In this document: positions 1 through 64,000 of the stretch, one piece after another | Layout of the letters: the number at the start of each line of letters is the position of its first letter | How positions within the stretch are numbered: the stretch's first letter is position 1 | Source of the DNA: Carcharhinus longimanus | Taxonomy: Eukaryota | DNA: 64,000 bases | Reading direction: 5' to 3' | Assembly: GCA_030264375.1 (NCBI GenBank) | Contig: JASCQW010000081.1 | Location: forward strand, 93,040,923-93,104,922 | Made by a program: the position numbers

Positions 1-3000
1 ATAGTTTAGCAAACACCTCAAAATATGAAGAGCGGCAATGAGGTACACTTACATTTCTCGAGGAAGAGAGGTATGGACAGTTGACTTCCTGAAATGTTGC
101 CAGGTCTTATGGTCATCTTGTCTCGATCTGCTCAGATGGAGAAGTAAAGCTATTTAATCGATCCAAAGCTCGAAGCACCGCGAAAAAGTGATGGGATTTC
201 AAACGACGTGTCATAGATGTTTGTGGCTACATCGCGTTCTTTCTAGGACGCTAATTATTCTTCTAATTGAAAAGATCCATTATCGCCAGTATTTTGTTTT
301 CAGTCTTGTCGAAAGTAGGTTGACGTGATGGGAAGCATATGGCAAATAATGAATTCCAATTGAGTGAAATCTATTTATTTTCTTGAACTTCCCCATTATG
401 TCGGCCGAGACCACAACTCGAGATTACTCTTACTAGGAGAAAAAACACATATTTTTCAATTCTTTATATTCATTAAAAATGCTCGCTGCCGGACTGACCT
501 AAATTAATACTCATCCGAAGGCGGTGGTGATCTGCATCCATGAAGCCATGCAGACCATGCAGTGCACGGCTACGCACAGTGCTAACGATAAGAATACACT
601 ATTATTTTGATACAGAAATTGATGCACGCCAATATCGGTTAACGTCGGCTGGTGTTGTCTAAGGCTTGGTGTGGCTGAAACCTGAAGTTTCCCGAGGAAT
701 TACGTTTCCACATGTAAGTCGTCAGTTTGTAATTTGCTGTTGGAGTGATTTGATGAATTGCAGCAAACGAATTTTGTGAAAGTAGATGCAAGTGCGTGAG
801 TTTGGCTTGTGTGGGTAAGGCGCTACATGCGGCTTAATGTAGTGGTGGCTGAAGGCGTGCCGCTGATCGTACAGCTGTTTGTTTCCTTTTGGGTATCTTT
901 TAGATGATGAGTTTCGTTGGAGCGTTTTCTATCATAGCAGAATGCGGCAATTCATTCATACTTCTTCATCGTAGGTTGTAGATGTCGAACAGGTCTTTGG
1001 GGAGAAGTTGGGTGGGACAACAGTCGCTGGAAGCTTCCTATCCACTAATCTGCTTTTCTAGCCAGAGTTTATTTTTGGCCAGCACTGTTCAGCTTCCAGT
1101 CAAGAGCGAGTCCAAGGAGTTTGATAACTGTAGATTTACCAATTGTATTGCCAATGAATTTTAATAGACTACGTTTATGCCTTTCTCTTTCTGGGGCACT
1201 ATGTTGCCTCCTGATAATTTGGCCCGGGTCCCAATTGTCTACTTGTCGCACCAAACCGGGAAAGTCTCCATAACTAAAAATGTTCGTAGTCTGACACAGT
1301 TGCATCACTTTACCAGAGTGTATGACCACTCGCTAAGTGAATGATGCGAAATCATTTCTTTCGCGACAATGGTCAAGCATCACTGTATGATAATTGCAAT
1401 CATCTACAACAAACAATGTTCAACTGAACAGATGGACTAGCGACACACAATGTCTGTGGACATGATGTTTCAAGTAAATGAGCGCCCGCGCCAAGAATAG
1501 TTGAAGTCAACTATCACTAAAGACGAAATGTTACATGATCAGATAACGCCAGAGTGCAAGCGGTATGGGGTTAATGTAGCCTGAGCTAAGCAACCATTCG
1601 AAAATGTTACGAGTGACATTGAGGCTCATTTCGCTTGCTAAAGAGAGGTACGGAAGTTTGATCCCTTGATATGTTACCTGATCTTATGTCCATCATGTCT
1701 CGATCTGCTGAAATGCAGCAGTAAGGGCAATTAGTCGTTCCAAAGGTCGAACCGTCCTACAGAACTGATCAGATATCAAATGACATATCATTGACTTACA
1801 TCAGTAATTCGTTTTTTTTTCAACTAACCGCTTTCCTTCTCAACAATCTATCACTTCTTCAATCAAATTAACATTCCATTTGCTGCAGCATCTTCATTCC
1901 GTTCTTGATAAAATGAAGTTGATGTGATTCGAAGCAAAATGGAACTTATGATTTCCAATTGAAGAAACGGTATTTATTTTCTTTGTCTTCCTATTTTTTG
2001 ACGGTCAATAGTATTAACTTTGAATTAGGAATCCCTCCTTCCCTACCAAAAATGAACACGAACTTTTACGGTCTTTATATTCATTCGTGAGAATCACTAG
2101 TTGCCATCTGGAGTTCGAAATAATTCTCGTCAGAAGGTGGAGGTCATCTGCATTCATAAGAACAGCTGCAGAACATTCAACGCATGTGTAACCACAGTGT
2201 TGACGGTACGTGTCTTTTTCTATAATGTTGACAGAGGGAAATTGTTGCACAAACATATATGTTAATGACGGATAATATTAGAATAGGGTGGGGCGCGATG
2301 TCTTGTAAAGGAATTCCTTTTCTACACCATCACGTGTTTGGAATTTGCTTTTGGAGTTGTTTTGATGAATTCGATCAGACGAATATTGTCCAAGATGGTG
2401 AAACAGTGAATGTTTGGCATGTGGGCGAGCGCATTGTTGGTGTCTTGAAGGATTGCTGGTTAACGCAGCGCGTTTGGACAACCTGCCAAGAAACTCCAAT
2501 TCTCACTCTGTTAGCCACTATGCCACATTGCCACTCTAATAATAACAATTCTCACTCCGTTAACCACTGTGTCACCGGGCCACCCTAGTAATTCTAATTC
2601 TCACTCTGTTAGCCACTGTGCCACAGTGCCACACAAGTAATTCCAATCCCCATTGTTAACAACTGTGCCACAGCACCACCCTAGTACTTCTAATTCTCAC
2701 TCTGTTAACAACTATGTTGACGTTGTTGAGTGTTGTTGGAGCTATGCATTTTATAGCATGTCGAGGCTTTTCAATCATGCTCCTTAATTGTACGGTGAAG
2801 TTGTTAAATAGGATTTTGCGGAGGGGTCGGATATAACACGAGATGTGTGACTTGTTTCACAATTCCTATCGTCTAATCTCCTTTTCATTCTTACCACCGT
2901 TCTTATTTATACATTAGCCCCTGTTCTTTTATTAATCAATATAGTCGTCCCGGATTGAAAATGTTGGAAACAACGAATACATTGTAATTTACTCTCGATG

Positions 3001-63000: not shown

Positions 63001-64000
63001 CTCCAGTTCCCTTCCAAACTCCACAGATATGCATGTTAGGTTGATTGGCTATGCTAAGTTGTCCTTTCGCGTTAGGGGGACAAGCAGGTTAAATAGATGG
63101 TCTTAACATGATAGGGTGGCATTTTAATAGGTGTAGGCTTGATAGACAAATGTTTCTTTCCGCACTGTAGAATCGTATTCTACGGCTGGTTTCTGGGCGA
63201 GAGTCGGCTTGAACAGCAGTTTGGTTACTCGCCACATGCTTCCAAGCCCCCTAATCAGCTGATGATATTTACGTTCCTGTCCTCGTTCTGTCTCTGGTCA
63301 TGACTGACTTCGAGGATGTTAATAGCACAGTATCTGGCAATGCTTTTGCCATTCACTGCAATGGGTGAAATTTAGGTATTCTCCCTTCTAGCAGCAGCTA
63401 GTTGACTCACAATTATTCTGCGCAAATGTTGCTTGCCAATTGTCAGCCGAGGTCTGGTAATAAGGAAAACTTGAATTTCAATTGATGGTCTTCAAAATGC
63501 TGATAATCGCTGATAATTCCAGAGGTTTAGCGCAGCGCATAACGAGTCTCACATTAAACAATGCCGGACCTATCATTATTGGGAATGGATGAGCAGTATC
63601 GTGTAACAATTGCAAACAATTTAATCAAACGTTTTTTAACTTGAAAGGATGGCGCAAACATACACAATAGCTGCAGGTATCATTGTACAAAGAAAGTGAA
63701 ATAGAGTTTGAATACATGCCCGATTATTCAGGTATCCGGTATATGCAGACATTTGCGTTCAAGCTTTTTTTAAAATATATACTGCAGTTGATGTGTGGAG
63801 AACGTAATGAGAAACAAACATTTCCAGTTGATAGAAAACTATTTATTTTCTGGTCCTCATTGCACTTTGTTGGATAACAAAAGAATAATCGTGTACGTTA
63901 TTCATCTACATTCATGAAATTAAGCTGTTGCGGGCGAATCAGAGCTTAACGTCAATCCGAAGGTGCGGGTAGCTGCTTCTAAGAAAACCCCATAGGCTAT

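What the first reader, a model, noticed from the sequence alone, without database searches (positions are those of the whole stretch)
1..64000. Ancient >=64-kb head-to-tail array of a LINE-tail + unique-sequence cassette
Seen: ~28-30 same-orientation monomers of ~1.5-1.7 kb run off both ends of the window. Each carries the same 5'-truncated LINE with the same breakpoints, so one insertion was amplified with its flank rather than inserted 30 times. Copies are far more diverged than a homogenised satellite yet remain colinear. Repeat maskers would report only scattered LINE fragments and miss the periodicity. Inference: this resembles tandem intron-exon arrays such as SNORD115/116 or rat Bsr, or TE-embedded small-RNA clusters such as C19MC. 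It is the best candidate here for an undescribed system.
[Added by the scan's program, not by the reader: the finding's places include an assembly gap (unread letters, written N; its length is only estimated) at 24402 to 24501, 40061 to 40427, 43052 to 43238, 46715 to 46814, 55450 to 55468, 60203 to 60302. Whether the letters on both sides are continuous or in frame is not known: test that first.]
Basis: partly seen in the sequence, partly recalled or inferred. Interest (0 to 1): 0.8.

Follow-up and report, generated by a model that had tools for sequence, protein, structure and literature searches.

The report
Fossil tandem array with antisense LINE remnant
The window is filled by an old, heavily decayed head-to-tail array of a 1.6-kb unit carrying a retrotransposon remnant; it looks like a dead macrosatellite, an ordinary kind of repeat, not a hidden small-RNA gene cluster.

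Summary
The array is real. A profile built from one copy finds 61 of 61 segments on the + strand, wrapping head-to-tail 27 times from base 2 to base 63988. That gives 31 full or partial monomers of about 1.59 kb and 60 % of the window. Shuffled windows give 0 hits. Copies are about 61 % identical whatever their distance apart, except one later three-monomer duplication at 81-83 %. The other 40 % is later insertions (LINE, SINE-like, LTR-element pieces) on both strands, plus gaps.

Each monomer carries a decayed reverse-transcriptase motif at the same position, antisense to the array. Where the LINE part ends and whether a non-LINE "unique" half exists could not be settled, because no eukaryotic repeat library was available.

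The functional idea fails every sequence test. Conservation is nearly flat. Rfam gives 0 hits even at E<=5. There is no conserved structure or compensatory change and no maintained C/D boxes.

Best reading: one unit was amplified at the DNA level long ago and has decayed neutrally since, a TE-derived macrosatellite. Transcription and orthology remain untested.

The parts
2..63988 (+). Whole head-to-tail array: 31 full or partial monomers of a ~1.59-kb unit, interrupted by later insertions. It runs off both window ends.
   Evidence: 61 of 61 nhmmer segments are on +, with 27 colinear wraps.
37715..39272 (+). Reference full-length monomer m18 (profile columns 1-1590), uninterrupted.
   Evidence: sequence read.
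38212..38302 (-). Decayed reverse-transcriptase motif ('W..KWQ..F.P..C' block, profile columns 508-598) in m18. The homologous stretch is kept (>70 of 91 columns) in 26 of 31 monomers.
   Evidence: Profile hmmsearch: the top 3 of 1168 targets are the three RT-bearing LINE fragments, and the best decoy is E 0.47. Frameshift-tolerant alignment scores 63 against a shuffled maximum of 47, z 6.2. 10 of 27 residues are identical.
40658..40733 (+). Example of the G-rich, length-variable junction spacer between monomers (8-84 nt at 22 junctions; C-rich on the LINE-sense strand).
2..9185 (+). Later three-monomer (~4.9 kb) duplication: m01-m03 against m04-m06, 81-83 % identical. It includes a shared SINE-like insertion (3219-3554 and 7954-8286).
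2487..2714 (+). 49-bp minisatellite (4.5 copies) inside m03, absent from its duplicate m06, so younger than the duplication.
12703..19528 (.). 6.8-kb block of nested transposon remains interrupting the array: an RT piece at 12806-13114 (+) and an integrase-core piece at 14873-15157 (-).
   Evidence: Pfam RVT_1 E 0.0076 (below the curated cut-off) and rve E 7e-07. No monomer signal.
26908..31260 (+). 4.35-kb interruption with decayed CR1-like RT pieces on the + strand (about 29874-30573).
   Evidence: tblastn to the window's RT ORFs; ORFs.
33724..35104 (+). LINE fragment inserted at monomer columns 1148-1166, with an 11-bp flanking repeat carrying 1 mismatch (33709-33719 and 35095-35105).
35688..37017 (+). 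LINE fragment inserted at monomer columns 97-109, with a 10-bp flanking repeat carrying 1 mismatch (35673-35682 and 37034-37043).
42585..44427 (-). 5'-truncated LINE insertion on the minus strand with RVT_1 ORFs (43323-43694, 43833-44420). It contains the gap at 43052-43238.
   Evidence: Pfam RVT_1 E 2.4e-12 and 1.8e-4.
51879..52758 (-). LINE fragment on the minus strand, with an RT-motif peptide at 52620-52718.
59213..60571 (-). LINE insertion on the minus strand (C-terminal-like ORF 59818-60165). It contains the gap at 60203-60302, and 721 monomer columns are missing across it.
39159..39180 (.). Short ancestral palindrome (9-bp stem, columns 1477-1498), the strongest fold signal in the monomer. 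It is decaying, not maintained.
46715..46814 (.). Assembly gap where array colinearity breaks (column 1590, then 1378). Continuity is not established.

Best explanation
This is a fossil macrosatellite.

A single ~1.6-kb stretch of DNA already contained a 5'-truncated non-LTR retrotransposon (LINE) copy lying antisense to the present + strand. That stretch was multiplied head-to-tail by DNA-level tandem duplication, such as unequal crossing-over or replication slippage. The amplification happened in one early phase.

After that, homogenisation stopped and the copies diverged independently at a near-neutral, position-independent rate. They collected deletions and insertions of LINEs, SINE-like elements and an LTR element on both strands. 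There were also a few local multi-monomer duplications.

No part of the unit shows sequence constraint, so the array most likely has no sequence-specific function today.

Shown:
- the array, its orientation and its colinearity;
- flat divergence;
- the RT remnant;
- later insertions and the later 3-monomer duplication.

Inferred:
- the amplification mechanism;
- neutrality;
- great age. Each lineage carries about 0.31 substitutions per site. That means roughly 10^8 years or more at vertebrate-like neutral rates, but the rate and the taxon are unknown here.
For: Array:
- 57 of 57 (single seed) and 61 of 61 (profile) segments are on +, with 27 colinear wraps.
- 0 hits in 5 of 5 shuffled windows, and an independent seed gives 54 of 54 on +.

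One shared unit structure:
- Alignments run through all 1591 columns and the same junction.

Star-like, lag-independent divergence:
- Mean identity is 0.606. Lags 1-12 give 0.605-0.643.
- Identity to the majority sequence is 0.749, range 0.688-0.802.

Flat conservation:
- Range 0.53-0.68. The best 30-column window is 0.734 against 0.697 expected.
- A/T columns are better kept than G/C columns (0.65 against 0.53). CpG count is 39 against 63 expected. This fits mutational decay.

LINE remnant:
-.

Stepwise DNA-level growth:
- The three-monomer duplication is at 81-83 %.
- m26 and m28 are at 0.712.
- m17 and m19 share a deletion of columns ~235-481.

Later insertions at different monomer columns:
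- Three keep 10-11-bp flanking repeats.
- They lie on both strands, 4 on + and 4 on -.

Known kind:
- Composite TE-containing core units arrayed as macrosatellites (10.1101/2021.07.12.451456, passages).
Against: - Nothing was tested about transcription, chromatin, copy-number variation or orthology, so 'no function' rests on sequence alone.
- Structural roles of satellites need no sequence conservation.
- Small but nominally significant departures from flatness exist. The peak is at columns 58-87 (p 0.008) and the trough at about columns 95-175 (p 0.001-0.003).
- Conservation in columns 1-350 shows a weak 3-base periodicity (p 0.007), which I could not explain.
- Only about 80 nt of the monomer is statistically tied to a LINE. 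Single fragments gave no Pfam hit (0 of 10), hhalign gave nothing and a PDB profile search gave nothing.
- Array persistence without homogenisation over such divergence is unusual.
Confidence: 0.8

Rival explanations
1. The array is the body of a long non-coding host transcript, and each unit carries an embedded small-RNA gene (C/D snoRNA as in SNORD115/116 or Bsr, or a pre-miRNA as in C19MC).
For: - All units have one orientation.
- A TE remnant sits in each unit, antisense to the + strand. At C19MC most Alus are antisense to transcription (PMC2691840, passage).
- The ancestral unit had a UGAUGA word at about column 78 and CUGA at about column 174 on the + strand, a snoRNA-like spacing.
- A small hairpin sits at columns 1477-1498.
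Against: - Rfam gave 0 hits at gathering thresholds and 0 at E<=5.
- There is no conserved island.
- The full C box RUGAUGA never recurs at a homologous column, with at most 1 monomer per bin.
- Both box-like words are kept in 3 of 22 monomers and neither in 10 of 22. The stretch between them is the least conserved part of the unit, at 0.531.
- 0 of 74 windows have a consensus pair.
- The hairpin keeps both sides in 0.670 of cells, equal to the independent expectation of 0.670. Only 6 of 206 cells are compensatory.
- In real SNORD115 arrays the boxes and basal stem are the most conserved positions (PMC12429941, passage).
Confidence: 0.04
2. The units are successive retrotranspositions of one LINE family, head-to-tail into each other's tails. 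From recall, this is how telomeric or self-targeting LINE arrays form. On this reading it is not DNA-level amplification.
For: - Every unit holds a LINE remnant in the same orientation.
- I could not show that any part of the unit is non-LINE.
- A low-complexity tract of variable length lies at each junction.
- The weak 3-base periodicity of differences in columns 1-350 could hint at divergence under coding constraint before insertion.
Against: - All copies begin and end at the same profile columns, whereas independent insertions are 5'-truncated at varying points.
- Multi-monomer blocks were duplicated as DNA.
- The N-terminal RT half shows no signal in the unit, z 0.5.
- The least conserved phase is the second codon position of the LINE-like frame, not the third.
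Confidence: 0.05
3. The array has, or once had, a role that does not depend on sequence. It could be a relic centromeric, pericentromeric or subtelomeric satellite, or a strand-specific small-RNA (piRNA-like) source against the LINE family it contains.
For: - The array is long and uniformly oriented.
- The LINE remnant is antisense to the + strand in 26 of 31 units.
- G-rich tracts recur once per unit.
- Satellites can act without sequence conservation (general knowledge).
Against: - Later TE insertions show no strand bias, 4 on + and 4 on -. A uni-strand trap would be expected to show a bias.
- About 61 % identity means no homogenisation, unlike active centromeric satellites.
- At this divergence the copies could no longer match an active LINE.
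Confidence: 0.08
4. The periodicity is an assembly artefact, for example mis-joined or duplicated contigs around the six gaps.
For: - There are six N gaps, and two of them coincide with breaks in colinearity.
- One gap follows a G20 run.
Against: - Copies differ by about 40 % and carry private insertions and deletions. An assembler cannot create that.
- Four of the six gaps are in phase or lie inside a single insertion.
Confidence: 0.01

Closest known systems
TE-containing megasatellites of the human genome (Warburton et al. 2008, PMC2588610; passages read)
   Same: - Kilobase-scale units made of, or containing, transposon fragments.
- All units share the same pattern and are arrayed head-to-tail.
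- They are thought to have been amplified by unequal crossing-over after the TEs had inserted.
- Repeat-masker tracks show only a repeating TE pattern.
   Different: - Here the copies are far more diverged (about 61 %) with no sign of ongoing homogenisation.
- Only one TE remnant could be identified in the unit.
That was not verifiable here.
'Composite' repeats of the complete human assembly (10.1101/2021.07.12.451456; passages read)
   Same: - Core units containing TEs are arranged in tandem as macrosatellites.
- They are distinguished from mobile composite retroelements.
- Some arrays are reported to evolve neutrally and others in concert.
   Different: - That definition asks for three or more repeated sequences per unit, and I could show only one.
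- The identity reported there for within-array copies was 80-100 %. Here it is about 61 %.
SNORD115/SNORD116 tandem snoRNA arrays (PMC12429941; passages read) and rat Bsr (recalled only, no paper read)
   Same: A long, same-orientation tandem array of kilobase units.
   Different: - No snoRNA was found. There are no maintained C/D boxes or stem and no conserved core.
- In SNORD115 the boxes and basal stem are the most conserved positions.
C19MC microRNA cluster (PMC2691840; abstract and passages read)
   Same: - Tandemly repeated units associated with retroelements.
- The TE copies are mostly antisense to the unit's direction.
   Different: - No pre-miRNA hairpin per unit was found.
- In this window the TE is inside the amplified unit. 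The later insertions show no strand bias (4 on +, 4 on -).

Membership tests
TE-derived macrosatellite / megasatellite | Kilobase-scale unit repeated head-to-tail over tens of kilobases | tested here: met
   The unit is ~1.59 kb, with 31 rows and 27 wraps across 64 kb.
TE-derived macrosatellite / megasatellite | The unit contains transposon-derived sequence at the same place in every copy | tested here: met
   An RT-motif remnant sits at columns 508-598 on the minus strand in 26 of 31 monomers.
TE-derived macrosatellite / megasatellite | Copies arose by DNA-level amplification of one unit (shared boundaries, multi-unit duplications), not by separate insertions | tested here: met
   All copies share the same column order and junction. 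There is a three-monomer duplication at 81-83 % and a shared deletion in m17 and m19. The mechanism itself is inferred.
'Composite' repeat as defined in 10.1101/2021.07.12.451456 | [quoted passage not shown] | tested here: inconclusive
   Only one TE remnant and one G-rich low-complexity tract were identified. No eukaryotic repeat library was available to annotate the remaining ~1 kb.
SNORD115/116- or Bsr-type snoRNA host array | Each unit holds a box C/D snoRNA with maintained C and D boxes and a terminal stem | tested here: not met
   Rfam gave 0 hits. RUGAUGA is never shared between monomers. Box-like words are kept together in 3 of 22 monomers.
SNORD115/116- or Bsr-type snoRNA host array | The small-RNA segment is clearly better conserved than the rest of the unit | tested here: not met
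   The profile is flat at 0.53-0.68. The best 30-column window is 0.734 against 0.697 by chance.
SNORD115/116- or Bsr-type snoRNA host array | Transcribed as a long spliced non-coding host RNA with repeated exons | not testable with these tools
   No expression data were available.
C19MC-type microRNA array | One pre-miRNA hairpin per unit | tested here: not met
   0 of 74 alignment windows have a consensus pair. The best mean z is -1.36 over 60 windows. The only shared hairpin decays independently on its two sides. Rfam gave 0 hits.
Head-to-tail LINE arrays made by repeated retrotransposition (defining features recalled, no paper read) | Units with individually varying 5' truncation points, each ending in its own 3' tail | tested here: not met
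   Monomer starts and ends fall at the same profile columns. The LINE 3' end itself could not be located.
Uni-strand small-RNA (piRNA-type) cluster (defining feature recalled) | Transposon insertions accumulate predominantly in one orientation | tested here: not met
   The later recognisable insertions are 4 on + (12806-13114, 29874-30573, 33722-34467, 35697-36306) and 4 on - (14873-15157, 42585-44427, 52620-52718, 59818-60165).

The most novel reading that the evidence does not exclude
One antisense LINE insertion was tandemly amplified into a strand-specific transcription unit, read from the + strand. That unit produced antisense-LINE small RNAs or a nuclear long non-coding RNA. What we see now is its long-lived remnant or a still-active form, kept colinear and unhomogenised for roughly 10^8 years.

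My evidence does not exclude this, because transcription, chromatin and orthology were not testable. It does argue against it, through flat conservation and the lack of strand bias among later insertions.
Probability: 0.04. Interest if true: 0.6.

Novelty: new member of a known kind. Interest (0 to 1): 0.22.

Why it matters
The array is mainly useful as an annotation and methods case. Standard tandem-repeat finders missed it: TRF with a maximum period of 500 found nothing relevant, and repeat maskers would show only fragments. Yet it explains 60 % of a 64-kb region and predicts where the assembly is unreliable, namely the two gaps that break the repeat phase.

Its roughly 30 paralogous copies seem to have evolved independently since one early burst. 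That makes them a natural internal sample of neutral substitution, indel and TE-insertion processes in this genome. They could help calibrate the age of the TE families that inserted into it.

If transcription were found, it would become a candidate TE-derived non-coding RNA locus. Nothing in the sequence points that way.

Tried and rejected
Searches that found nothing:
- TRF found nothing with the 1.6-kb period.
- Exact 14-mers showed only the 4.7-4.96-kb spacing of the young duplication.
- tRNA scan: 0.
- Rfam: 0 hits at gathering thresholds and 0 at E<=5.

Attempts to tie the monomer to a LINE:
- Ten stop-free monomer pieces gave no meaningful Pfam family, 0 of 10 with RVT_1.
- The protein atlas gave no usable hit for a 138-aa monomer piece.
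- An alignment of 14 real monomer peptides (A1) mixed frames. It gave nothing by hhalign against the window's RT ORF or against PDB sequences, best E 0.68. I count these as inconclusive, not negative.
- Codon-phase base composition of the majority sequence did not delimit an ORF. Only 1 of 23 windows reached p<0.01, at columns 661-900.

Frameshift-tolerant alignments that were not significant:
- the N-terminal RT half, z 0.5;
- another LINE family's C-terminus, z 0.7;
- four other LINE pieces, z -0.4 to 1.2;
- one non-colinear match at z 3.4, which I treat as chance.

So my by-eye reading of further ORF2-like motifs in the pseudo-translation is recall, not a result. Those motifs are a 'PQG..LGP.LF'-like stretch near column 815, 'LNG..IAES..I.ILGV' near column 500, and an ORF2 C-terminus down to column 1.

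RNA tests:
- The RNA structure scans, the hairpin test and the C/D-box test were all negative.

Not used or not available:
- I did not use structure prediction, fold search or complex prediction, because there is no credible protein.
- I did not use the bacterial/archaeal genome collection or the phage, plasmid and E. coli collections. They are irrelevant to a vertebrate-like repeat.
No relatives outside the window were sought.
- Nothing suggests the window is human, and I did not treat it as such.
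Full report
**Observation**

The window has about 40 % G+C and six N runs. 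Tandem Repeats Finder, whose longest period is 500, reported only three short unrelated arrays. Exact 14-mers showed only a 4.7-4.96-kb spacing.

A sensitive self-comparison changed the picture. It gave 229 direct against 9 inverted HSP pairs, mostly 58-70 % identical. Every match of the stretch 37000-40060 to the rest of the window was on the + strand.

I then ran nhmmer from a single copy (37700-39285).
- It found 57 of 57 hits on the + strand. After two profile rounds it found 61 of 61.
- The same seed found nothing in 5 of 5 shuffled windows.
- An independent seed from the other end of the window (55474-57056) recovered 54 of 54 + strand hits spanning 13-63993.

Profile coordinates of successive segments increase and wrap 27 times from base 2 to base 63988. 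Merged, they give 31 full or partial monomers, 15 of which fill at least 1400 of 1591 columns. Uninterrupted copies are 1558-1626 bp long, plus a junction spacer of 8-84 nt.

Two qualifications apply. Only 38,668 of 64,000 bases (60 %) belong to monomers. The rest is later insertions and 873 N.

**Gaps**

As asked, I tested the gaps first. I compared only the profile position on each side and inferred no letters.

| Gap | Finding | Verdict |
|---|---|---|
| 40061-40427 | Flanked by columns 1008 and 1369; 360 columns missing against 371 bases | In phase |
| 24402-24501 | Columns 866 to 970, same monomer | In phase |
| 55450-55468 | In the G-rich junction spacer just after a G20 run | In phase |
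| 43052-43238 | Inside one minus-strand LINE insertion, LINE-like matches in the expected order on both sides | Consistent |
| 46715-46814 | Phase breaks: column 1590, then 1378 | Continuity not shown |
| 60203-60302 | 721 monomer columns absent across a LINE insertion | Continuity not shown |

At the last two gaps copies may be missing.

**Divergence pattern**

Mean pairwise identity is 0.606 over 443 pairs, range 0.506-0.831. It does not depend on distance in the array: lags 1-12 give 0.605-0.643. Identity to the majority sequence is 0.749, range 0.688-0.802. That is about 0.31 substitutions per site per lineage by Jukes-Cantor. The tree is thus close to a star.

The exceptions are later DNA-level duplications of several monomers at once.
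- m01-m03 against m04-m06 are 81-83 % identical. This block includes a shared SINE-like insertion, so that insertion predates the duplication.
- m26 and m28 are 0.712 identical.
- m17 and m19 share a deletion of columns ~235-481.

**What the unit is made of**

Pfam-confirmed reverse-transcriptase ORFs lie on the minus strand at 43.3-44.4 kb. They belong to an insertion, not to the monomer.

The monomer itself has a decayed RT remnant, again on the minus strand.
- tblastn with the RT ORF gave weak hits at the same monomer position in three copies and in the majority sequence.
- I built a profile from column-triplet pseudo-translations of all monomers. Its consensus reads 'WadkWqvaFapqnCe'. It picked the three RT-bearing LINE fragments of the window as the top 3 of 1168 targets (584 peptides plus their reversals), at E 1.4e-3, 2e-3 and 0.056, all at the homologous motif. 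The best decoy was 0.47.
- A frameshift-tolerant alignment of the RT ORF to the majority minus strand scored 63 against a shuffled maximum of 47 (z 6.2). The plus strand gave z -0.7. The alignment covers columns 587 to 508 with 10 of 27 identical residues.
- A second fragment gave z 5.5 at the same place.
- The stretch is kept in 26 of 31 monomers.

Beyond this block I have no statistical support.
- The N-terminal RT half gave z 0.5.
- A different family's C-terminus gave z 0.7.
- Four other pieces gave z no higher than 1.2.
- One non-colinear match reached z 3.4.
- Ten single fragments gave no RVT_1 match in Pfam.
- hhalign and a PDB profile search gave nothing, on a poor mixed-frame alignment.
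- The atlas gave no usable hit.

By eye the pseudo-translation continues like an ORF2 C-terminus down to about column 1. That is recall, not a test.

So the LINE's 5' truncation point and 3' end inside the unit remain unknown. It is also unknown whether the other ~1 kb is 'unique' flank, UTR or other repeats. Only a eukaryotic repeat library could settle this, and none was available. What is certain is that the boundaries, wherever they lie, are the same in all copies, because the copies align through the entire unit.

**Later history**

Interruptions sit at different monomer columns and contain:
- CR1-like RT pieces on + (12806-13114, 29874-30573, 33722-34467, 35697-36306) and on - (42585-44427, 52620-52718, 59818-60165);
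- an integrase-core piece on - (14873-15157);
- SINE-like elements.

Three insertions keep 10-11-bp flanking repeats with one mismatch. The strand count is 4 to 4.

**Test of the functional idea**

- Fifty-column windows range 0.53-0.68 around 0.605.
- The best 30-column window (from column 58) is 0.734 against 0.697 from column shuffles (p 0.008, one of several window sizes tried). The main departure is a slightly less conserved stretch at columns ~95-175.
- A/T columns are better kept than G/C columns, and CpG is depleted at 39 against 63 expected. Mutational decay predicts both.

The RNA tests were all negative.
- Rfam gave 0 hits at gathering thresholds and 0 at E<=5. The tRNA scan gave 0.
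- RNAalifold found no consensus pair in 0 of 74 windows on either strand.
- Folding each monomer separately gave, over 60 windows, a grand mean z of -0.27 and a minimum of -1.36, at columns 1451-1550.
- That signal is a 9-bp palindrome. Both sides are kept in 0.670 of cells, exactly the product of the single-side frequencies (0.670). Of 206 cells, 6 are compensatory and 43 broken.
- RUGAUGA never recurs at a homologous column. The ancestral UGAUGA (about column 78) and CUGA (about column 174) words survive together in 3 of 22 monomers. Neither survives in 10 of 22. The stretch between them is the least conserved part of the unit, at 0.531.

For comparison, in SNORD115 the boxes and basal stem are the most conserved positions (PMC12429941, passages). 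C19MC has one pre-miRNA per 400-700-nt unit (PMC2691840, abstract and passages).

**Interpretation**

The simplest account is a TE-derived macrosatellite. A ~1.6-kb piece of DNA holding an antisense, 5'-truncated LINE copy was amplified head-to-tail at the DNA level in one early phase. It then stopped being homogenised and has since decayed neutrally, collecting insertions, deletions and a few local duplications.

This kind is described for the human genome in two sources.
- 'Composite' core units arrayed as macrosatellites, some evolving neutrally (10.1101/2021.07.12.451456, passages).

I found no paper describing such an array in cartilaginous fishes. The single search on this (terms 'satellite DNA', 'LINE', 'tandem', 'shark'; 52 papers, 15 listed) is thin evidence of absence. 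In the one shark paper I opened, the passages mention Y-linked satellites and LINE abundance only (PMC11406177).

The unusual aspect is the degree of divergence with preserved colinearity. That implies an age of the order of 10^8 years at vertebrate-like neutral rates. This is an inference, since neither the rate nor the taxon is known here.

**Unexplained**

Conservation in columns 1-350 shows a weak 3-base periodicity that survives removal of base-composition effects (p 0.007; p 0.003 for columns 1-700; none in columns 701-1591). The least conserved phase is the second codon position of the LINE-like frame, so it does not look like coding constraint.

**Left open**

Transcription, chromatin state, array ends, flanking genes and orthologous arrays were not examined. 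Supplementary files of the papers were not consulted. Nothing suggests the window is human.

Noticed in passing
window 13244-13283 (+), 20870-20909 (-), 43649-43686 (-): A ~40-nt element is 95-97 % identical at three places whose surroundings are otherwise highly diverged. It is probably the conserved end of a younger SINE or LINE family nested in older repeats.
   Followed up: partly
22 monomer junctions, e.g. window 22928-22997, 32363-32428, 40658-40733, 55390-55473: Each monomer junction holds a G-rich, G/T low-complexity tract of very variable length (8-84 nt). One assembly gap (55450-55468) directly follows a G20 run. It might be a slippage-prone or recombination-prone tract; that is speculation.
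   Followed up: partly
window 2487-2714: A 49-bp minisatellite (4.5 copies, 77 % matches) is present in monomer m03 but absent from its 81 %-identical duplicate m06. It therefore arose after the three-monomer duplication.
   Followed up: partly
profile columns 1-350 of the monomer (e.g. window 37715-38060): Conservation between monomers shows a weak 3-base periodicity that is not explained by base composition (p 0.007). The least conserved phase is the second codon position of the LINE-like frame. The cause is unknown.
   Followed up: partly
window 14873-15157 (-), within the block 12703-19528: An integrase-core (rve) fragment, E 7e-07 and just under Pfam's cut-off, indicates a decayed LTR-type retroelement nested with a LINE RT piece (12806-13114, +) inside the array.
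   Followed up: no
window 3219-3554 (-), 7954-8286 (-), 62888-63185 (+): Three copies of a ~300-bp SINE-like element are about 75 % identical to each other. The identification as tRNA-derived is by recall only, and ARAGORN finds no tRNA. Two of them are shared by the duplicated block, which dates that insertion between the array burst and the duplication.
   Followed up: partly
window 14001-18000: G+C is highest here (0.44-0.45 against about 0.40 elsewhere), inside the nested-transposon block. No Pfam family was found for the five ORFs tested in this stretch.
   Followed up: no
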